Made by a program: the position numbers and the translations under genes. A stretch of DNA of 64,000 nucleotides, taken from positions 227,756 through 291,755 of the forward strand of contig CAVYHK010000033.1 in assembly GCA_963768145.1 (NCBI GenBank), written 5' to 3'. Position 1 is the first letter of the stretch. The number at the start of each line of letters is the position of its first letter. The notes under the pieces are model-generated. The model was not told where the DNA came from. It searched no databases and saw only the letters and a list, made by a program, of their open reading frames with translations. This document shows positions 4,049 through 49,111 of the stretch, one piece after another. This DNA is from an uncultured Bacteroidota bacterium. Its GTDB lineage: Bacteria; Bacteroidota; Ignavibacteria; Kryptoniales; JAKASW01.

Positions 4049-5153
4049 GTTCTCTCCTATCAGTCCGCTTAAAGGTTTGTCTGGAGTAAAGACAGAAAAA
4101 GGAATCGCGCGATTGACGCACAGGGCGTAATATGTTTTGGATTCTCCGAGAAAGGCCGAGATCGACGAGAGAGCCTACATCCAGGTATTCGTCGGGATAG
4201 AAGTGTGTCAGGTTTAAACCGATAAACTCTCCACCGTCAATCTTCAGAACGACGTGCTTCGGGGCACGCCTGAATTTTCCTCCGTAGGAAGAAGCAGCGT
4301 GGAGCACGAAATAAAACGGCTCGGTCATTCGAAAAGTTTGTTTCGCCAGATATGAAGCTCTTGACTTCACAACCTTGCTGACCTTTGCTGCACCTGAAAC
4401 AAATCCACGAACAGCAACATTAAAGATTCGTGGCGTCCTGTAACCGGCAACGTCAAGCGTATTGAAGAGAAGCGGATCCATGAAGGAAAAATCCTTGTCG
4501 TGGATCTCGAAGTGAAGATGTGGACCCCCAGTGCCACTCGCACCCGTGTATGCAATGACTTCGCCGCGATCAACGCTGATATCACCGGGGCTCAGTTTCA
4601 AATTCACTCCATACTTGTTTTCTTGCCGTTGTGTTGCCTCGACTTTCTGTTGAATTTCTTCCGAGAATCCGGAAAGATGCCCGTACAAAGTAAATGTGGA
4701 ATCATCATGTCTCAGTATGATCATCTTCCCGTAACCAAATGGTGAAACTGAAATCTGGTAGACATATCCGGATTTTGCCGCGAACACCCGATAGCCAATC
4801 TTCTCATTTGTCGAAATATCCATTCCGCCGTGGAAGTGGGACGAACGATAATCGGCAAACCCGGAATTTATTTTGCGCGAAGCATCGGTGGGAAAAAGAT
4901 AAGCGGCGTTTGGAGATGCTTTGGAATTACCGGCGTGCATTTTCCCGTAACAAACAGTCGAAAGCCCAGCGGAAAAGAGATCGACCGCAGAGAACGCCAA
5001 GAACGCGCCAAGGACGCCAAGAAGAAATTTGCTCTTGACATTAATTCTCTTTTGTGGTCTTTGTACCGGCTTTGCGAACCCAGTAATCACATTTTCCGGA
5101 TGGATCAACAGAGGAGACAAAAATGCGGTGGATAAACCGGACAGAAAACTCAT
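4023..5153 (-). CDS. M23/LytM family metallopeptidase (N-terminal part)
   Basis: HFHGGMDIST ... GASGTGGPHLHFEIHD are the HxxxD and HxH zinc motifs of family M23. There is an N-terminal membrane anchor. Confidence 0.85.
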   Translation of the reverse strand: MSFLSGLSTAFLSPLLIHPENVITGFAKPVQRPQKRINVKSKFLLGVLGAFLAFSAVDLFSAGLSTVCYGKMHAGNSKASPNAAYLFPTDASRKINSGFADYRSSHFHGGMDISTNEKIGYRVFAAKSGYVYQISVSPFGYGKMIILRHDDSTFTLYGHLSGFSEEIQQKVEATQRQENKYGVNLKLSPGDISVDRGEVIAYTGASGTGGPHLHFEIHDKDFSFMDPLLFNTLDVAGYRTPRIFNVAVRGFVSGAAKVSKVVKSRASYLAKQTFRMTEPFYFVLHAASSYGGKFRRAPKHVVLKIDGGEFIGLNLTHFYPDEYLDVGSLVDLGLSRRIQNILRPVRQSRDSFFCLYSRQTFKRTDRRERVQRGSFL

Positions 5154-9762: not shown

Positions 9763-11265
9763 TTGGATTGGAATAAATACGAAGCCGTAATCGGACTTGA
9801 AGTCCACGCGCAGATGCTCACGGAGACAAAGACATTTTGCGGGTGCTCGACAAGATTTGGCAATCCTCCGAACTCGAACGTCTGCCCGGTATGCCTTGGA
9901 ATGCCGGGCGTGCTTCCGGTTCTGAATAAGAAGCTCGTCGAGTTCGCCATAAAAATGGGACTTGCCACGGATTGCCGCATCGCGCCGTACTCAATATTCG
10001 CGCGCAAGAATTACTTCTATCCCGATCTTCCGAAAGGCTACCAGATTTCGCAGTTCGAGGAGCCGATCTGCGTAGATGGTCATGTCGAGATCGAGAAGAT
10101 CGACGGCTCGAAAAAGAGAATCGGTCTCATCAGGATTCACATGGAAGAAGACGCCGGCAAGCTGATCCATGACCAGGATGTCGATACGCTTATCGATGTG
10201 AACAGATGCGGCACTCCGCTTCTCGAGGTCGTCAGCAAACCCGACATACGATCCGCAGAGGAGGCCTACCTTTATCTCCAGCAGATAAAGCAGGTCGTGA
10301 CATACCTCGAAATTTGTGATGGCAACATGGAAGAAGGCTCACTGCGATGCGATGCAAACGTTTCGTTAAGACTCCGCGGGACGACGGAGTTTGGTACGAA
10401 GGTAGAAATTAAAAACATGAATTCCTTCCGCAATGTCGAACGGGCACTCGATGTGGAAATCGAACGGCAGTATGCAATCCTCGAACACGGGGGAACAATT
10501 TTGCAGGAAACGCTTCTCTACAATGCCGACGCGAACACCGTCAAGCCAATGCGCTCGAAGGAAGAAGCGAACGATTACCGTTACTTCCCCGACCCTGATC
10601 TCGTTCCTGTTCTTATCGACGAGTTGTGGATCGAGAGAGTCAAAGCCGCCCAGCCTGAACTTCCTACGAAGCGTCGCGACAGGTATATGCAGGAATTTTC
10701 TTTACCGAAATACGACGCGGAAATTCTAACCGGAGACAAGGCGGTTGCCGATTATTACGAGAACATTACTGCGAACCTGAAATTGAAATCGAAGGATGCC
10801 TACAAGCAGGCAAGCAATTACGTGATGACTGATGTGCTTCGGGTTATCGGCGAAGAGCATATCAAGATAAACGAATTTCCTGTTGAGCCGCAGAATCTTG
10901 CGAGGATGATCGACCTTATAAATGAAGGAACGATCTCAACGAAGCTTGCGAAAAATGTTTTCGAGGAAATGCTGCAATCCCCGAAGGGGCAGGCAGCCCA
11001 GACTCCGGATTCGATCATTGAGAAAAAAGGATTGCGGCAGGTTTCAGATCAGACAGAGATAGACAAAGTCGTGGAGGAAGTTCTAAAGTCTAATCCCGAC
11101 GAGGTGCAACGATACCTCAGCGGCAAAGACAAAGTGTTCGGTTTCTTCGTCGGCGAGGTGATGAAGAAAACCCGTGGCAAGGCGAACCCAAAGGTGTTGA
11201 ACGAGCTTCTCAAGAAGCAATTGGAGAAGCTCAGGAATCAGTCGCCAATTGTCAATGAAGAATGA
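9763..11265 (+). CDS. gatB: Asp/Glu-tRNA(Asn/Gln) amidotransferase subunit B
   Basis: YEAVIGLEVHAQM.TKTFCGC...NSNVCPVC.GMPGVLPVLN...RIHMEEDAGK...GSLRCDANVS. Confidence 0.95.
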   Translation: MDWNKYEAVIGLEVHAQMLTETKTFCGCSTRFGNPPNSNVCPVCLGMPGVLPVLNKKLVEFAIKMGLATDCRIAPYSIFARKNYFYPDLPKGYQISQFEEPICVDGHVEIEKIDGSKKRIGLIRIHMEEDAGKLIHDQDVDTLIDVNRCGTPLLEVVSKPDIRSAEEAYLYLQQIKQVVTYLEICDGNMEEGSLRCDANVSLRLRGTTEFGTKVEIKNMNSFRNVERALDVEIERQYAILEHGGTILQETLLYNADANTVKPMRSKEEANDYRYFPDPDLVPVLIDELWIERVKAAQPELPTKRRDRYMQEFSLPKYDAEILTGDKAVADYYENITANLKLKSKDAYKQASNYVMTDVLRVIGEEHIKINEFPVEPQNLARMIDLINEGTISTKLAKNVFEEMLQSPKGQAAQTPDSIIEKKGLRQVSDQTEIDKVVEEVLKSNPDEVQRYLSGKDKVFGFFVGEVMKKTRGKANPKVLNELLKKQLEKLRNQSPIVNEE

Positions 11266-41366: not shown

Positions 41367-41648
41367 CTATTCTCTTTCAGACTTGGCGTTGTAGACGATC
41401 TTCCGGATGGTGTCGAACCGCAAATATGGATATTCATCCTGGATCTTCTCAATCGCATCGCCGACACTCATGTAGTTTCGCAGGTCTTTGAAGCGGCGCT
41501 TGATCTGGTAATCTCTAACCGCCTTATAGTCCAAGAGACTGTTTTCGATCAGCTTTTCGTAGATCTCGTCCGTGAGAATATCGCTCAGGGGGTTCTCGAT
41601 CTGTTTCTTTTGTACCTTCTTTTTTTCCGAGGGAAGAACCTTTTCCAT
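41367..41648 (-). CDS. 93-aa hypothetical protein (possible small HTH, Mor-like C-terminus)
   Basis: VRDYQIKRRFKDLRNYMSVGDAIEKIQDEYPYLRFDTIRKIVYN. Weak pattern similarity only. Confidence 0.3.
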   Translation of the reverse strand: MEKVLPSEKKKVQKKQIENPLSDILTDEIYEKLIENSLLDYKAVRDYQIKRRFKDLRNYMSVGDAIEKIQDEYPYLRFDTIRKIVYNAKSERE

Positions 41649-41848
41649 GTTTTCCTCGCTTATCCTTTAGTGAGACTTAATTTTAACATACATTATCGAA
41701 GTCTCTCTTTTCCCTCCGATTGTGTTCTTCTATTCGTTTTCATATGCCGTCAAATAATGACCTTGGTTGCTGGTTTAAATCTAACACTTTCGTCAGTGGT
41801 CTCCTGTGGGCTATATCAACCACCTCACGAGAGCGCTTATTTCGTCTG

Positions 41849-41923
41849 TGGGCTCTACTGGATTCGAACCAGTGACCTCTCGCGTGTGAGGCGAACGCTC
41901 TGAACCAACTGAGCTAAGAGCCC
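41849..41923 (-). tRNA. tRNA-Val (anticodon CAC), canonical cloverleaf
   Basis: GGGCTCT-TA-GCTC-AGTTGGTTCA-GAGC-G-TTCGC-CTCACAC-GCGAG-AGGTC-ACTGG-TTCGAAT-CCAGT-AGAGCCC-A. Confidence 0.92.
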
Positions 41924-41989
41924 GCGTCACCTTGAAAATCTATCATCAAGCAAAAAAAGAGCAGGCTTCCACACACTACAATCGTTCTG

Positions 41990-42064
41990 TGGGCTCTATC
42001 CCGCAAAGCGGGATGACCTCTCGCGTGTGAGGCGAACGCTCTGAACCAACTGAGCTAAGAGCCC
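41990..42064 (-). ncRNA. tRNA-Val(CAC)-like unit with non-canonical T-arm (ATCCC-GCTTTGC-GGGAT)
   Basis: 58/58 identical to 41849-41923 outside the 17-nt T-arm, which is replaced by a different 17-nt hairpin. Confidence 0.7.
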
Positions 42065-42130
42065 GCCTCACCTTGAAAATCTATCATCAAGCAAAAAAAG
42101 AGCAGGCTTCCACACACTACAATCGTTCTG

Positions 42131-42205
42131 TGGGCTCTATCCCGCAAAGCGGGATGACCTCTCGCGTGTGAGGCGAACGCTCTGAACCAACTGAGCTAAG
42201 AGCCC
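42131..42205 (-). ncRNA. tRNA-Val(CAC)-like unit with non-canonical T-arm (identical to 41990-42064)
   Basis: 75/75 identical to the previous unit. Confidence 0.7.
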
Positions 42206-42271
42206 GCGCCGGCTTGTAAATCTGTCATCAAACAGAGAAAGAACAAGCGTTCACACACTGCAATCGTTTCG

Positions 42272-42346
42272 TGGGTTCTATCCCTCAGAGCAGGATGACC
42301 TCACGCGTGTGAAGCGAACGCTCTTATCCGCTTGGGCTGAGAGCCC
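42272..42346 (-). ncRNA. diverged tRNA-Val(CAC)-like unit (variant T-arm ATCCT-GCTCTGA-GGGAT; stem mismatches)
   Basis: GGGCTCT-CA-GCCC-AAGCGGATAA-GAGC-G-TTCGC-TTCACAC-GCGTG-AGGTC-ATCCT-GCTCTGA-GGGAT-AGAACCC-A. There is one mismatch each in the acceptor, D and anticodon stems. Confidence 0.55.
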
Positions 42347-42358
42347 AGAATAATGAAT

Positions 42359-42387
42359 AATCTAACACACAGTCGGTTGGTAATCAA
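42359..42387 (-). promoter_or_regulatory. sigma70-like promoter TTGATT-N17-TAGATT, 12 nt upstream of the first tRNA-like unit
   Basis: The minus strand reads TTGATT accaaccgactgtgtgt TAGATT attcattattct GGGCTCT. Confidence 0.55.
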
Positions 42388-42605
42388 GAAAATCCCCGTG
42401 ATTTTCGTCGTTTTTTCCCTATCCACCCATCTAACTCAAGAAACCGAAGGCTTTGCATTTTCAATTGGTTTCACTTAGGACGAGATTGCAATCATATGGT
42501 TTAAAATGCATTATCGGACACCTACCGAAGCGTGTTTCAGCACTTGTGAATTTCGAAGGTACCCATTGCAGACACGGCAAAAGAGGTGCCCTTTGGGTCG
42601 AAACA

Positions 42606-44447
42606 CTAAATCCCGGCTGATTCAAGGACTTCTACCGCTACTTCATACTTCTTGAAGGGCGGGAGCAGGTAAGCCCCTGCAACAGCAGACTTAGCCTCTC
42701 GGAGGAATTCCGACGAAATATCAATTCCAACCCGAACGGCATTCTCACCGGCGCGAGACATTCTCTCTCTTACCTTTTCAGGTATGTTTATTCCGGGTAT
42801 TTCATGATGAAGGAATTCCGCATGCTTGTAACTTCGAAGGGGAAGAACTCCTACTATGACCGGAATGTGCAATGGTTCTACCGCCCTAATGAATCTCTCA
42901 AGAACACCAATCTCGTAGATCGGTTGAGTGATAATCACTTCCGCTCCCGATTCGACCTTGCGACCAAGTTTTTCTATCTCGTAGCCGAATTTATCCGCAG
43001 ATGGATTCGCGGCACATGCGATAGTAAAAGATGTTGTCTCGCCAATGGGATTTCCAGCGGAGTCCCGTCCACAATTCATGTTCTTTATTATCTTGATAAG
43101 TCCCACCGAGTCGACATCGAAGACTGATTTTGCCTGGGGGAGATCGCCGATCTTTGCGGGGTCGCCAGTAATCACCAGAATATTCCTTAATCCCAGCGCA
43201 TGCGCCCCTAGAAGTTCAGCTTGCAAGCCGATCATGTTTCTGTCTCGCGTGGCTAAGTGGGTGATAGCTTCGATTCCAACCTCCTGCTGAATGATTCTTG
43301 AGATTGCAACCGAGCTCATTCTTATTCTTGCCCGCGCTCCATCCGTGACATGCACCGCATCGAATCCGTTCTCTTTGCAGAAGCGTGCCCCCTCGATGAC
43401 GGTCGAAATATCGAGGCCGCGAGGAATATCGAGTTCCAGGGTCGTGATGAATTTTTTTCCGATTTTTCTCGAGAACTCAGACCGTGTTGAAACTTTTTCT
43501 GCTGTCGGTCCCTTGCTGGGCAGAATTCTCTTCCTAGGGGTGGTTATAGACTCTCGTAATCCTGCTGGCCGAGCGGACCTCACATCGCGGACGGCTTCCG
43601 CAATTGCTTTGATGTGAGAAGGTGTTGAGCCGCAACACGCTCCGATAACTGTAACGCCAGCTTCAACAAGCTGCTTTGCATAGGTTGCGAGATATTCCGG
43701 CGTCGCATGATAAATTGATCTCCCGTCTACAAGTGTAGGAATTCCCGCAGCAGGTTGAGCCGACAGAACGAGATCTTCAGAAGACATCGATTTTATCAGC
43801 CCGTACATTCTCTGCGGGCCCACCGTGCAGTTCGATCCGACAACATCCACACCTTTAGATTTAATATGTCTCACAACTTCAACAGGAAAATCGGTAGCCA
43901 AGATTGCGCCATCTTCGGAAAATGTCTTCTGAGCAATTATCGGTATTTCAGGCGAGATTTCTTTCACGGCATCGATAGCGGCGTCCAGCTCGTTTAGATC
44001 AATGAATGTCTCAAGTATCAGAAGATCGACTCCGCCTTTGACGAGAATTTCTACCTGTTCTTTAAAAACTTTTTTCGCATCGGCGATTTTCGTCTTACCA
44101 AGAGGTTCAAGGAGTTTCCCGGTCGGTCCGACAGCGCCGGCGACGTAGACATTCTCCCCGGCGGCGCGCCTAGCGATTTTCACTGCAGACTCGTTTATCT
44201 CGTTTATTTTATCGGCAAGATGGTACGCCTCGAGGCGCATCCTATTGGCAGAAAACGTGTTCGTCTCGATGATTTCCGCGCCGGCTTGAATATATTCGCG
44301 GTGCGCACGTTCCACAATGTCCGGGTTCTTTATATTATGAATCTCCGGCGGCAGCTCGTCATATTCATACAGTTCGAGAAGCGTCCCCATTGCACCGTCG
44401 CACACGATAACGCCGTCTTTGAGTCTTTCACGAAATGGTTTCTTCAT
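42606..44447 (-). CDS. bifunctional homocysteine S-methyltransferase / 5,10-methylenetetrahydrofolate reductase (YitJ-like)
   Basis: The N-terminus GVIVCDGAMGTLL...TNTF is an Hcy-binding domain. The C-terminal ~290 aa is MetF-like (..TTLELDIPRG...ITGDP..). Confidence 0.85.
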   Translation of the reverse strand: MKKPFRERLKDGVIVCDGAMGTLLELYEYDELPPEIHNIKNPDIVERAHREYIQAGAEIIETNTFSANRMRLEAYHLADKINEINESAVKIARRAAGENVYVAGAVGPTGKLLEPLGKTKIADAKKVFKEQVEILVKGGVDLLILETFIDLNELDAAIDAVKEISPEIPIIAQKTFSEDGAILATDFPVEVVRHIKSKGVDVVGSNCTVGPQRMYGLIKSMSSEDLVLSAQPAAGIPTLVDGRSIYHATPEYLATYAKQLVEAGVTVIGACCGSTPSHIKAIAEAVRDVRSARPAGLRESITTPRKRILPSKGPTAEKVSTRSEFSRKIGKKFITTLELDIPRGLDISTVIEGARFCKENGFDAVHVTDGARARIRMSSVAISRIIQQEVGIEAITHLATRDRNMIGLQAELLGAHALGLRNILVITGDPAKIGDLPQAKSVFDVDSVGLIKIIKNMNCGRDSAGNPIGETTSFTIACAANPSADKFGYEIEKLGRKVESGAEVIITQPIYEIGVLERFIRAVEPLHIPVIVGVLPLRSYKHAEFLHHEIPGINIPEKVRERMSRAGENAVRVGIDISSEFLREAKSAVAGAYLLPPFKKYEVAVEVLESAGI

Positions 44448-48585: not shown

Positions 48586-49111
48586 AGGTGTCCACTTCAA
48601 TGCTTTGTCATTCCCGATCTAATCGGGAATCCACACTTTGGAAGACATCGTCCCTTCAATTTGTTCTGGTTATCTCACGGACTGGATTCCCGCTTCCGCG
48701 GGAATGACAGAGCGTGGGGTTATGTCATTTCGGCGAGTCCCTCCTTCTTCACGAACGGACGATGAGAAATTCTCTGCGAGAGTCCTCAAATGTTAATTTA
48801 GAAGTCACCAATAGTAGATTCCTCCACGCGTTTTCCTCGCTCACACGACGAAAACTTGGTCGGAACGACAAAAGAGCGAATTTGTCACCTCTCCTTCCCG
48901 GGGCTGGGGGTTACCCTGCGACAGTCGATCGGTAATAAGCGAATCGGTTTGAAGTTCATGGATTAAAGAAATAAATTTGGAAGTTAAATGGGCGGCAAAG
49001 AAAAAGAAAACAAATGCTACGTGTAGATCGGACCGAATCGGGTTACATATACGAAATGGGCAGTTACAGTAGTTGTGCGCATGGTGCACCTCAACAAGTC
49101 GCACATAGGCA

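What the first reader, a model, noticed from the sequence alone, without database searches (positions are those of the whole stretch)
41806..42390. Tandem array of tRNA-Val(CAC) units in which the T-arm is exactly swapped for a non-canonical hairpin
Four 75-nt cloverleaf-shaped units lie on the minus strand at an exact 141-nt period.
- The last-transcribed unit (41849-41923) is a normal tRNA-Val(CAC) with T-arm ACTGG-TTCGAAT-CCAGT.
- The two middle units are identical to it at all 58 other positions. Their 17-nt T-arm is replaced, with no length change, by ATCCC-GCTTTGC-GGGAT. That loop has no T54/Psi55/C56/A58 equivalents, so the D-loop/T-loop elbow cannot form in the usual way.
- The first unit is much more diverged, with mismatches in three stems. 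It still keeps anticodon CAC, A73 and the variant hairpin, with a stem-preserving change (ATCCT..GGGAT, U-G).

Keeping the Val identity elements (A35, C36, A73) while the arm contacted by EF-Tu, TrmA and TruB is replaced is not what random pseudogenisation predicts.

Possible meanings (inference):
- tRNAs that can be charged but escape translation, by analogy with the T-arm-altered non-proteinogenic tRNA-Gly used for staphylococcal cell-wall synthesis;
- decoys for anticodon nucleases;
- a tRNA-derived regulatory or repeat RNA;
- recent duplication followed by conversion with a genome-wide REP-type hairpin. TCCCGC-N4-GCGGGA hairpins occur elsewhere in this window, for example at 48690-48710.

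A further short fragment (tgggctat.., 41806-41848) suggests the array was once longer.
Basis: partly seen in the sequence, partly recalled or inferred. Interest (0 to 1): 0.85.

Follow-up and report, generated by a model that had tools for sequence, protein, structure and literature searches.

The report
Tandem pseudo-tRNA-Val copies with swapped T-arm
One working valine tRNA gene is preceded by three defective tandem copies whose T-arm was replaced by a GC-rich hairpin, and the same hairpin marks a previously undescribed tRNA-end look-alike found beside valine and alanine tRNA genes in related bacteria.

Summary
Four 75-nt units lie at a 141-nt period on the minus strand. Only the last one (41849-41923) is a normal tRNA-Val(CAC). 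U2 and U3 differ from it only at unit positions 52-66, and U1 is decayed.

The functional reading is not supported:
- The closest relatives carry only U1 plus the real tRNA.
- U1 accumulates stem-breaking changes.
- U2, U3 and U4 share a lineage-specific C32, so their identity reflects recent recombination, not selection.

The variant arm (ATCCCGC-TTT-GCGGGAT, 7 bp plus a 3-nt loop) is not a REP. It belongs to a ~36-nt "3'-third mimic": variable loop, hairpin, then the acceptor 3' strand plus A-C. In related Ca. Kryptoniota genomes this mimic sits just downstream of the orthologous tRNA, in one case in at least 16 tandem copies. The window's own copy (41806-41828) is decayed. Slippage between the short repeats that flank both arms gives an exact swap.

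The same hairpin follows tRNA-Val(GAC), tRNA-Val(CAC), tRNA-Ala(UGC) and tRNA-Lys(CTT) genes in metagenomes: 9 of 73 matches, against about 0.1 expected. No Rfam family matches it.

Verdict: a recombinant pseudo-tRNA array. The conserved tRNA-linked mimic is the interesting part, and its function is unknown.

The parts
42358..42389 (-). Promoter-like motif TCTTGATT-N16-TTAGATTA. It is the only conserved promoter-like element upstream of the array. U1 starts 11 nt after it.
   Evidence: The motif is conserved in 14 related loci. The real tRNA starts at +11 in L009, L164, L013 and L015, whereas a pseudo-tRNA sits at +11 in the window, L001, L014 and L052. It was not called by the simple sigma-70 scan. 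Promoter function is inferred from conservation only.
42272..42346 (-). U1: an old, decayed pseudo-tRNA-Val. Its hairpin is ATCCT-GCTCTGA-GGGAT (42280-42296).
   Evidence: It gives no RF00005 hit at E<=10 and does not fold as a cloverleaf. It has orthologues in L001 and L155 with different stem-breaking changes. The mimic model R1 scores it at 40.8 bits.
42206..42271 (-). Spacer S1 (66 nt).
   Evidence: It is 61/66 identical to its orthologues in L001 and L155, but only 50-51/66 identical to S2 and S3.
42131..42205 (-). U2: a T-arm-swapped pseudo-tRNA-Val. The body is identical to U4, and the hairpin ATCCCGC-TTT-GCGGGAT lies at 42139-42155.
   Evidence: RF00005 scores it at 44.0 bits with the T-arm skipped. 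It differs from U4 only at unit positions 52-66. It folds as a cloverleaf at -34.4 kcal/mol. Model R1 scores it at 52.3 bits.
42065..42130 (-). Spacer S2 (66 nt).
   Evidence: It is 65/66 identical to S3 and 50/66 identical to S1. It shows no significant similarity to the promoter region.
41990..42064 (-). U3: an identical copy of U2, with its hairpin at 41998-42014.
   Evidence: The 141-nt units of U2 and U3 differ at one base, so the duplication is very recent.
41924..41989 (-). Spacer S3 (66 nt).
41849..41923 (-). U4: the functional tRNA-Val(CAC) gene. It has a canonical T-arm (ACTGG-TTCGAAT-CCAGT) and does not encode CCA.
   Evidence: ARAGORN calls it and RF00005 scores it at 70.5 bits. 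It is 99-100% identical to its orthologues in L001 and L155.
41806..41828 (-). Decayed copy of the 3'-third mimic (GTGAGGT..GGTTGAT-ATAGCCCAC). Half of the hairpin is lost.
   Evidence: It lies at the same position (+33 after the tRNA) as the intact copy in L009, whose hairpin is ATCACCC-TCT-GGGTGAT followed by ACAGCCCAC. It is homologous to the mimics in L014, L015 and L016. The decayed state is shared with L001 and L155.
42606..44447 (-). Upstream flanking gene: a fused homocysteine S-methyltransferase / MTHFR.
   Evidence: It matches PF02574 and PF02219, and synteny is conserved. No integrase was found near the locus.
41367..41648 (-). Downstream flanking gene: a conserved 93-aa ORF of unknown function.
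   Evidence: It is syntenic in all relatives. It has no Pfam match.

Best explanation
**What it is.** The array is a lineage-specific tandem amplification of defective tRNA-Val copies. They lie in the 5' leader of the single working tRNA-Val(CAC) gene.

**Where the variant arm comes from.** The 'variant T-arm' is the hairpin of a conserved tRNA-linked element, called here the '3'-third mimic'. The mimic copies tRNA positions ~42-74, but its 17-nt T-arm is replaced by a 7-bp GC hairpin with a 3-4-nt loop. In relatives it sits 2-30 nt downstream of the orthologous tRNA.

**How the swap happens (inferred).** The same short repeats flank both the T-arm and the mimic hairpin: (G)AGAGGTCA on the 5' side and AGAGCCCAC on the 3' side. 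One replication-slippage or unequal-recombination event between these repeats fuses a tRNA body to the hairpin with no change in length.

**How the array grew (inferred).**
- The locus had already duplicated its tRNA, and the copy next to the promoter degenerated into U1.
- Unequal crossing-over among the 141-nt units then made and homogenised U2 and U3 with U4.

**What the units do (inferred).** U1-U3 are probably co-transcribed with U4 from the one upstream promoter. They are not used in translation.

**Open point.** The hairpin element is conserved and probably has a role of its own. The most likely role is as a structured RNA module in tRNA-operon trailers or leaders, in processing, 3'-end protection or protein binding. 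That role is not shown here.
For: **Shown directly.**
- Only U4 is a bona fide tRNA.
- The orthologous tRNA-Val(CAC) is followed by the mimic in several relatives:
  - L014: one intact copy and one decayed copy.
  - L016: at least 16 tandem 36-nt copies.
  - L015: one copy.
  - L009/L012: one copy with two compensated stem pairs.
  - L160: the hairpin lies inside a full pseudo-tRNA and has an extra compensated pair.
  - L017, L052, the window and L001: decayed copies.
  - L013: a clean deletion of the mimic.
- In those relatives the tRNA and the mimic share AGAGGTCA and AGAGCCCAC at a 36-nt offset.
- The promoter motif is conserved. A pseudo-tRNA occupies the +11 position that the real tRNA holds in leaderless relatives.
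- The closest lineages (L001, L155, L152, L156) have U1+S1+U4 only.
- U2, U3 and U4 share C32, whereas U1 and the sister-lineage tRNAs have T32.
- U2 and U3 are near-identical 141-nt units.
- U1 evolves at the same rate as its spacer (93-97% identity against 99-100% for U4) and carries stem-breaking changes.
- The hairpin is not dispersed: model R1 finds only U1-U3 in 64 kb.
- The conserved synteny contains no integrase.

**Inferred.** The slippage and crossover steps, co-transcription of the units, and any RNA-level role of the hairpin.
Against: - **U2/U3 carry an intact, ancestral-type hairpin, although U1 and the trailing mimic were already decayed before the window, L001 and L155 lineages split.**
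  - S2 is 24% diverged from S1, whereas S1 orthologues differ by 8%.
  - The U2-type unit is therefore older than that split and must have been lost in the sister lineages.
  - Its hairpin and acceptor strand stayed intact meanwhile, which hints at constraint on at least that part.
- **U1 and S1 are more conserved** (92-97%) than the upstream intergenic DNA (81-85%). The leader may therefore not be fully neutral.
- **The hairpin stem sequence is identical in lineages whose tRNA sequences differ strongly**. Pure drift does not predict this.
- **Nothing here shows whether the units are transcribed, processed or charged.**
- **The copy number rests on one assembly.**
Confidence: 0.7

Rival explanations
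1. U2 and U3 are functional non-canonical tRNA-like RNAs. They would be processed, given CCA and valylated. Lacking the T-loop elbow, they would stay out of the ribosome and serve another pathway, or act as decoys for tRNA-targeting nucleases.
For: - The cloverleaf fold keeps an intact acceptor stem, D arm and anticodon arm, with A35, C36 and A73.
- The RF00005 score is above the gathering threshold.
- The hairpin is intact although the neighbouring copies have decayed.
- Pseudo-tRNAs with roles outside translation are known, for example B. cereus tRNA-Other (PMC3399842).
Against: - The units are absent from the closest relatives.
- The older unit U1 decays.
- Identity with U4 is explained by recent exchange (shared C32).
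- In other lineages the conserved part lacks the anticodon arm, or has it replaced by a hairpin, so Val identity is not what is kept.
- CCA is not encoded.
Confidence: 0.08
2. The hairpin-bearing mimic, and by extension U1-U3, is a functional RNA module of tRNA operons. It could be a T-loop-less 'top-half' tRNA mimic that serves as an RNase P or RNase Z cleavage signal, a 3'-end protecting structure, or a trailer-derived small RNA or protein-binding site. Known parallels are E. coli RttR and 3'ETS-leuZ.
For: - Nine of 73 metagenome matches to the hairpin lie within 300 nt downstream, on the same strand, of a tRNA: four after tRNA-Val(GAC), one after tRNA-Val(CAC), three after tRNA-Ala(UGC) and one after tRNA-Lys(CTT). 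About 0.1 is my rough estimate of the number expected by chance, from typical tRNA gene density.
- In L085 and L130 the element lies between the tRNA and an intrinsic-terminator-like hairpin with a U-run, so it is inside the transcript.
- Stem pairing is kept in 87% of cells, and 3 pairs are changed on both sides, in 10 copies found by synteny (1 of 500 shuffles reach this).
- U-G variants occur only in the tRNA-sense orientation.
- Self-contained tRNA-like folds exist in L160, L107 and L147, with z-scores of -2.9 to -6.2.
- Trailer-derived functional RNAs are known.
Against: - Presence is patchy. The element is lost or decayed in L006/L162, L164, L013, L161, L017, L052, and in the trailing copy of the window and L001.
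- The metagenome set was selected for the exact stem, so its sequence conservation is partly ascertainment.
- Compensatory changes in a DNA palindrome can also arise by templated correction, without selection on RNA.
- No expression data are available.
Confidence: 0.3
3. The feature is a DNA-level phenomenon. The GC palindrome would be a protein-binding or recombination site, or simply a slippage-prone hairpin that spreads and amplifies selfishly next to tRNA genes.
For: - Arrays with different periods all contain the hairpin: 36 nt in L016, 52 nt in L131, about 170 nt in L090 and 141 nt here.
- A clean deletion between flanking repeats is seen in L013.
- The palindrome is perfect.
Against: - Loop length and sequence vary (3, 4 or 5 nt), which is unusual for a dimeric DNA site.
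- The orientation is always that of the tRNA.
- No recombinase is linked to it.
- It is not dispersed.
Confidence: 0.15
4. The units are remnants of attachment sites left by integrative elements that target the 3' end of tRNA-Val.
For: Partial 3'-end repeats of tRNAs that look like classical att sites do occur in the same data: L131 tRNA-Val at +178 and L147 tRNA-Leu at +64, both with a canonical T-loop part.
Against: - Here the T-arm itself is replaced, while both flanks stay tRNA-like.
- The repeat lies only 2-40 nt from the tRNA, with no element in between.
- Synteny on both sides is conserved and contains no integrase.
Confidence: 0.04
5. The tandem copies are an assembly artefact.
For: Tandem repeats are error-prone in assemblies. 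The source contig could not be retrieved for checking.
Against: - The units are not identical: U1 and S1 are diverged, and S2 and S3 differ at one base.
- U1+U4 recurs in many independent assemblies.
- Two independent short-read contigs break exactly at the U2/U4 divergence point.
Confidence: 0.03

Closest known systems
E. coli tyrT-tyrV-rttR locus: 178-nt tandem repeats in a tRNA-operon trailer, each ending in the 3' end of tRNA-Tyr
   Same: A tRNA gene is followed, or here also preceded, by tandem repeats that each carry a copy of the tRNA's 3'-terminal segment. I checked this in NC_000913: 3.1 copies at period 178, each ending in AATCCTTCCCCCACCACCA, with the annotated small RNA RttR. The evident origin is unequal recombination at the tRNA-derived repeat. 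The repeats are co-transcribed with the tRNA (from my own knowledge of the tyrT literature).
   Different: - In E. coli the repeat keeps only the last ~19 nt of the tRNA, including part of the canonical T-arm. Here both flanks of the T-arm are kept and the arm itself is replaced by an unrelated GC hairpin.
- Here whole cloverleaf-shaped units occur.
- The same hairpin recurs next to different tRNAs and in different lineages.
Pseudo-tRNAs with roles outside translation (B. cereus tRNA-Other; staphylococcal cell-wall tRNA-Gly)
   Same: These are tRNA-shaped genes that lack features needed on the ribosome (PMC3399842). The staphylococcal case is from my own knowledge.
   Different: - Those are single, conserved genes with a T-loop.
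- The window units are lineage-specific tandem copies without any T-loop.
- They are not conserved in sister lineages.
3' external transcribed spacer RNAs of tRNA operons (3'ETS-leuZ)
   Same: Both are functional RNA derived from the trailer of a tRNA transcript (PMC6191717). In L085 and L130 the mimic lies in the trailer, upstream of the terminator.
   Different: - 3'ETS-leuZ is not tRNA-like and acts by pairing with sRNAs through Hfq.
- No pairing target or expression is known for the mimic.
tRNA 3'-end direct repeats left by integrases (att sites)
   Same: Both are partial copies of a tRNA 3' end close to the gene. Classical-looking examples occur in L131 and L147.
   Different: - att repeats keep the canonical T-loop and T-stem sequence and flank a mobile element with an integrase.
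- Here the T-arm is replaced, there is no element and there is no integrase.
REP/BIME palindromic elements
   Same: Both are short GC-rich palindromes in intergenic DNA.
   Different: - REPs are dispersed in hundreds of copies.
- This hairpin occurs only inside the tRNA array in 64 kb.
- Elsewhere it is strongly tRNA-linked.

Membership tests
Canonical tRNA (Rfam RF00005) | Cloverleaf scoring above the curated gathering score | tested here: met
   U4 scores 70.5 bits and U2 and U3 score 44.0 bits each, against a gathering score of 29. U1 gives no hit at E<=10.
Canonical tRNA (Rfam RF00005) | T-arm with a 5-bp stem and a 7-nt T-loop (GTTCGAAT-type: T54, Psi55, C56, A58) able to form the elbow with the D-loop | tested here: not met
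   - U1-U3 carry ATCCCGC-TTT-GCGGGAT or a decayed form of it.
- cmscan skips the arm.
- ARAGORN does not call them.
- Only U4 meets this feature.
Functional non-proteinogenic / regulatory pseudo-tRNA | Gene retained with intact stems in related lineages | tested here: not met
   U2 and U3 are absent from L001, L155, L152 and L156. U1 orthologues carry stem-breaking changes.
Functional non-proteinogenic / regulatory pseudo-tRNA | Expressed, processed and, for some, aminoacylated | not testable with these tools
   No expression data are available. CCA is not encoded.
tRNA-operon trailer repeats of the E. coli tyrT/rttR type | Tandem repeats adjacent to a tRNA gene, each containing a copy of the tRNA 3'-terminal segment | tested here: met
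   - Window: a 141-nt period, with units ending in AGAGCCCAC.
- L016: at least 16 copies of 36 nt.
- E. coli reference checked.
tRNA-operon trailer repeats of the E. coli tyrT/rttR type | Sequence homology to the E. coli repeat or to RttR | tested here: not met
   There is no Rfam hit other than tRNA. The unit and the organism are different, so the resemblance is analogy only.
REP/BIME elements | Many dispersed intergenic copies of the palindrome | tested here: not met
   The only copies in 64 kb lie in the array. The single TCCCGC-N4-GCGGGA site at 48688 is at chance level. The whole genome could not be searched.
Integrase att-site remnant | Repeat of the tRNA 3' end with the canonical T-arm part, flanking an element that carries an integrase | tested here: not met
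   The T-arm is replaced. Neither the window neighbourhood nor the syntenic loci contain an integrase or an inserted element.
CRISPR array | Direct repeats separated by unique spacers of similar length | tested here: not met
   The spacers S1-S3 are homologous to one another. The L016 units abut one another with no spacers.

The most novel reading that the evidence does not exclude
The T-arm-less '3'-third mimic' may be an undescribed, sequence-conserved RNA module of tRNA-Val and tRNA-Ala operons in Kryptoniota and related FCB-group bacteria. It consists of the variable loop, an AUCCCGC-loop-GCGGGAU hairpin, and the acceptor 3' strand followed by A-C. It is sometimes completed by its own 5' acceptor strand into a full or nested tRNA-like fold. 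Under this reading it has a real function, for example as a processing signal for RNase P/Z, as a protein-binding small RNA, or in control of tRNA maturation. The window's U2 and U3 would then be extra, expressed copies of that module rather than junk.
Probability: 0.3. Interest if true: 0.75.

Novelty: new variant of a known kind. Interest (0 to 1): 0.55.

Why it matters
**For this window.** The result is sobering. A striking 'designed-looking' tRNA variant is most simply a recombination product in an unstable tRNA locus. It should not be annotated as a tRNA, even though Rfam scores it above threshold.

**More broadly.** The analysis uncovers a recurrent element in which the T-arm of a tRNA 3' copy is replaced, base for base in length, by one particular GC hairpin.
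- It occurs next to several different tRNA genes and in several lineages.
- It matches no Rfam family.
- It could be a functional trailer or leader RNA, or a driver of tRNA-locus instability. In either case it would add a new kind of tRNA-derived element in a poorly studied phylum.
- It would also explain the false tRNA calls and the assembly breaks seen at these loci.

Tried and rejected
- **REP-type origin.** Pattern searches and a covariance model find the hairpin only inside the array in the window. Rejected.
- **Each spacer carries a copy of the promoter** (a TAGATT lies 13 nt before each unit). Local alignment of S1 and S2 against the promoter region is no better than shuffles. Rejected.
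- **Known RNA family.** Rfam at permissive E-values gave only tRNA hits. This covered the window region, nine tRNA-linked metagenome loci and ten non-tRNA loci with the same hairpin.
- **Phage or mobile origin.** The viral-contig scan gave two coding-sequence hits only. The syntenic loci contain no integrase.
- **General 'split pseudo-tRNA clamp'** (a leader 5' half pairing with the trailer mimic around the real tRNA).
  - Supported in L147 (GGATAAT/ATTATCC and a 14-bp stem).
  - Supported by one compensated pair in L014 (GGGCTTT/AAAGCCC).
  - Not supported in L016, L017, L052, L118 or L131, so it is not adopted as the general model.
- **Retrieving the window's own contig or spanning contigs.** Exact look-ups of MetH and P0001 failed, and the last look-up was uninformative.
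- **Literature searches** for a described equivalent found none.
- **Function of the downstream 93-aa ORF.** No Pfam match.
Full report
**1. What is in the window**

On the minus strand, four 75-nt units start at 42346, 42205, 42064 and 41923, an exact 141-nt period. Tandem Repeats Finder reports 3.2 copies with 92% matches and no indels.

- ARAGORN calls a single tRNA in the 64-kb window: U4 (41848-41923, Val, anticodon CAC).
- Rfam RF00005 gives 70.5 bits for U4 and 44.0 bits each for U2 and U3, against a gathering score of 29. The T-arm is skipped in those two alignments. U1 gives no hit even at E<=10.
- U2 and U3 differ from U4 only at unit positions 52-66. Their 141-nt units differ from each other at one base.
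- The replacement arm is a perfect 7-bp stem with a UUU loop (ATCCCGC-TTT-GCGGGAT). With it, U2 folds as a cloverleaf at -34.4 kcal/mol. U1 does not fold as a cloverleaf.
- No CCA is encoded.
- The hairpin is not dispersed. Pattern searches and a covariance model find it only in the array. The TCCCGC-N4-GCGGGA site at 48688 is a single, chance-level match.

**2. Genomic setting**

The array lies between a fused homocysteine S-methyltransferase/MTHFR gene (42606-44447) and a conserved 93-aa ORF (41367-41648).

- This synteny is kept in relatives labelled Candidatus Kryptoniota or 'Bacteroidetes bacterium' MAGs, with 79-93% MetH identity. Ca. Kryptobacter and Ca. Kryptonium are at about 67%.
- No integrase or inserted element is present.
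- A promoter-like motif, TCTTGAyT-N16/17-TTAGATTA, is conserved in 14 loci.
  - In L009, L164, L013 and L015 the real tRNA starts 11 nt after it.
  - In the window, L001/L155, L014 and L052 a pseudo-tRNA occupies that +11 position, and the real tRNA lies 65-434 nt further on.
- The locus has therefore carried tandem tRNA copies for a long time. The promoter-proximal copy decays, and the array collapses or expands lineage by lineage.

**3. Where the variant arm comes from**

BLAST of the units against the relatives showed that positions 44-75 of U2 recur immediately downstream of the orthologous tRNA. These positions are the variable loop, the hairpin, the acceptor 3' strand and A73.

| Locus | State of the downstream element |
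|---|---|
| L014 | tRNA-CGTG-AGAGGTC-ATCCCGC-TTTT-GCGGGAT-AAAGCCCAC, plus a decayed second copy |
| L016 | at least 16 tandem 36-nt units (GCAGAGGTC-ATCCCGC-TTGT-GCGGGAT-AGAGCCCAC), with an N gap |
| L015 | a slightly altered copy |
| L013 | the same locus as L015 with a clean deletion of the element |
| L009/L012 | ATCACCC-TCT-GGGTGAT-ACAGCCCAC, two stem pairs changed on both sides |
| L160 | a full pseudo-tRNA downstream of the tRNA, with ATCCCGAC-CTT-GTCGGGAT (an extra compensated pair) |
| L017, L052 | decayed copies |
| L006/L162, L164, L161 | none |
| Window, L001, L155 | the fragment at 41806-41828 (GTGAGGT..GGTTGAT-ATAGCCCAC), the decayed homologue at the same offset |

The tRNA and the element share AGAGGTCA before the arm and AGAGCCCAC after it, and the two arms have the same length. 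The event itself is inferred. The substrates are observed in L014 and L016, and an analogous repeat-mediated deletion is observed in L013.

**4. Age and constraint of the window units**

- The closest lineages share an identical 93-aa ORF and 93% MetH identity with the window. Many independent assemblies of them have only U1+S1+U4.
- U1 orthologues differ by changes that break the anticodon stem and the hairpin: ACCCT..GGGAT in L155, and a 1-nt deletion in L001.
- Identity among the three lineages, by segment:

| Segment | Identity |
|---|---|
| U4 | 99-100% |
| U1 | 93-97% |
| S1 | 92-95% |
| Trailer | 89-93% |
| Upstream intergenic DNA | 81-85% |

- U1 thus behaves like its spacer, not like a tRNA. 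The leader as a whole is somewhat more conserved than the upstream DNA.
- The window's U4 has C32, where the sister lineages and U1 have T32. U2 and U3 share this C32. Their bodies were therefore exchanged with U4 after the lineages split. This explains the 58/58 identity without selection.
- S2 and S3 are only 50-54/66 identical to S1, while S1 orthologues are 61-63/66 identical to each other. In addition, the U2/U3 hairpin is the intact ancestral type, not the decayed U1 type.
- A U2-type unit therefore predates the split and was lost in the sister lineages. This is concerted evolution in a tandem array, and it hints that the hairpin part resists decay.
- Two short-read contigs from independent samples start exactly at GGTCACTGGTTCG, where U4 departs from U2/U3. 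This fits a real repeat.

**5. The element beyond this locus**

One metagenome scan for GGTCATCCCGC-N3/4-GCGGGATA gave 70 loci, and the viral-contig scan added two, for 73 matches in 72 loci. Most belong to unrelated hairpin families or are coding sequences.

All nine loci that contain any tRNA have the match within 300 nt downstream of a tRNA on the same strand. The chance expectation is about 0.1, my rough estimate from typical tRNA gene density.

- **After tRNA-Val(GAC):** L085, L130, L118 and L107. A fifth case, L090, sits on a truncated contig where ARAGORN called no tRNA.
- **After tRNA-Val(CAC):** L147.
- **After tRNA-Ala(UGC):** L131 (two copies at a 52-nt period) and L144.
- **After tRNA-Lys(CTT):** L121.
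- **Flanks:** they often copy the adjacent tRNA (ATCGCCCA in L118, ACGGTCCACCA in L131, and the whole anticodon arm plus 30 nt of trailer in L090). In L085 they do not. There the element is nearly identical to that of L130 although the two tRNAs differ strongly.
- **Transcript position:** in L085 and L130 a terminator-like hairpin with a U-run follows the element, so it lies inside the transcript.
- **Second arm replaced:** some copies are complete tRNA-like folds in which the anticodon arm is also replaced by a GC hairpin. Examples are CCCCGCC-GAG-GCGGGG in L107, L121, TCCCGCC-CTC-GGCGGGA in the L052 leader, and TGGCGCG-TTT-CGCGCCA in L016.
- **Nested case:** in L147 an outer pseudo-tRNA (GGATAAT...ATTATCC) encloses the real tRNA-Val in a 14-bp stem (-81.5 kcal/mol, z -6.2).
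- **Taxonomy and neighbours:** proteins on L107 and L118 carry NCBI names from 'Bacteroidota bacterium' MAGs. thrS follows the operon in L118 and, by the ThrRS-like ORF on its overlapping contig L136, in L107.
- **Covariation:** on ten copies found by synteny, 87% of stem cells pair and three pairs show changes on both sides (1 of 500 shuffles reach this).
- **Model search:** a covariance model (R1) found no further copies in 725 kb of held sequence. It separates mimics (38-53 bits) from real tRNA 3' thirds (13-25 bits).
- **Known families:** Rfam has no matching family.

**6. Interpretation**

The best-supported account is given under 'best explanation'. U1-U3 are recombinant, tandemly amplified pseudo-tRNAs in the leader of one functional tRNA-Val gene. 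Their arm comes from a conserved tRNA-linked hairpin element.

- **Shown:** the anatomy, the homology of the arm to the downstream element, the lineage restriction of U2/U3, the decay of U1, the shared C32, and the tRNA linkage of the hairpin.
- **Inferred:** the slippage and crossover steps, co-transcription, non-use in translation, and any function of the hairpin.

The 'conversion with a hairpin element' idea is essentially right, but the donor is tRNA-linked, not a REP.

**7. Comparison with known systems**

- The nearest described anatomy is the E. coli tyrT-tyrV-rttR locus, which I re-examined. It has 3.1 copies of a 178-nt trailer repeat, each ending in the tRNA-Tyr 3' end, and an annotated small RNA.
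- Trailer-derived functional RNA is also known from 3'ETS-leuZ.
- Pseudo-tRNAs with non-translational roles are known from B. cereus tRNA-Other.
- None of these shows a length-preserving replacement of the T-arm by one recurrent hairpin.
- I found no description of such an element, although the searchable library is limited.

**8. Caveats**

- The metagenome set was selected on the exact stem, so its sequence conservation is partly built in.
- Compensated changes in a DNA palindrome can arise by templated correction.
- Copy numbers in MAG assemblies are uncertain: L016 has an N gap, and the window has a single assembly.
- No expression data were available.
- Whole genomes of the clade could not be scanned.

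Noticed in passing
L016 6110-6690 and 6735-6830: At least 16 tandem 36-nt or 40-nt mimic units lie directly after tRNA-Val(CAC), with an N gap in the assembly. They are followed by another pseudo-tRNA whose anticodon arm is replaced by TGGCGCG-TTT-CGCGCCA and whose T-arm carries an insertion.
   Followed up: partly
L147 4083-4265: This is a nested arrangement. An outer pseudo-tRNA (acceptor GGATAAT/ATTATCC, variant hairpin) has the real tRNA-Val(CAC) inserted in its D-loop region on a 14-bp stem. The predicted fold is -81.5 kcal/mol (z -6.2). A further mini pseudo-tRNA with hairpin TTCCGCC-AGA-GGCGGAT follows at about 4277-4320, and the same 16-mer hairpin also occurs in L130 at about 203-218.
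   Followed up: partly
L107 5225-5304 (continued on L136), L121 2140-2195, L052 5919-5995: These pseudo-tRNAs have the anticodon arm replaced by a perfect GC hairpin of about the same length: CCCCGCC-GAG-GCGGGG, TCCCCCGG-TACA-CCGGGGGA and TCCCGCC-CTC-GGCGGGA. In L107 and L121 the T-arm is replaced as well. Why arms are repeatedly swapped for 7-bp/3-nt hairpins is unexplained.
   Followed up: partly
window 41649-41727 (5' UTR of the 93-aa ORF at 41367-41648): The leader CAATCGGAGGG...AAGTCTCACTAAA upstream of the conserved 93-aa ORF is 99-100% identical among lineages whose nearby intergenic DNA is 81-93% identical, and it is recognisable in all relatives. It may be a cis-regulatory RNA. The ORF has no Pfam match.
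   Followed up: partly
L083, L097, L101, L124, L126, L128, L132, L138, L145 (metagenome): An unrelated double-hairpin family carries TTGTTCGGCCGA-N-GGCCGAACAAAAAC followed by the same GGTCATCCCGC-N3-GCGGGATA hairpin. It has no Rfam match and no tRNA nearby.
   Followed up: no
L096, L102, L109, L114, L120, L135, L137, L140 (metagenome): Another family has CACGGTGCGTGT, the same hairpin, then GGTCGCGAAGC..GTCGAACA. It lies inside a longer inverted repeat and has no Rfam family. A large human-gut family (GCAGGGCGAGGTGA plus the hairpin) also matched the pattern.
   Followed up: no
L130 1-117: This is the 3' part of a group I intron (34 bits, below the gathering score of 50) just upstream of tRNA-Val(GAC). 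It probably sits in the tRNA-Leu(UAA) gene that precedes tRNA-Val(GAC) in L107 and L118.
   Followed up: no
L131 1470-1512; L147 about 11212-11222: These are classical-looking partial repeats of tRNA 3' ends that keep the canonical T-loop and T-stem: tRNA-Val(CAC) at +178 and tRNA-Leu(TAG) at +64. They are likely att-site remnants and are distinct from the hairpin-substituted mimic.
   Followed up: partly
window 48605-48705: Two small intergenic hairpins occur here, ATTCCCGAT-CTA-ATCGGGAAT and TCCCGC-TTCC-GCGGGA. It is a single copy, at chance level, and unrelated to the tRNA element.
   Followed up: yes
L118 1745-3646; L136: thrS (threonine-tRNA ligase) lies immediately downstream of the Leu(UAA)-Val(GAC)-mimic operon in L118. 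The ORF after the pseudo-tRNA on L136, which overlaps the end of L107, looked ThrRS-like by eye, and this was not searched. I did not examine whether the mimic has any link to thrS expression.
   Followed up: no
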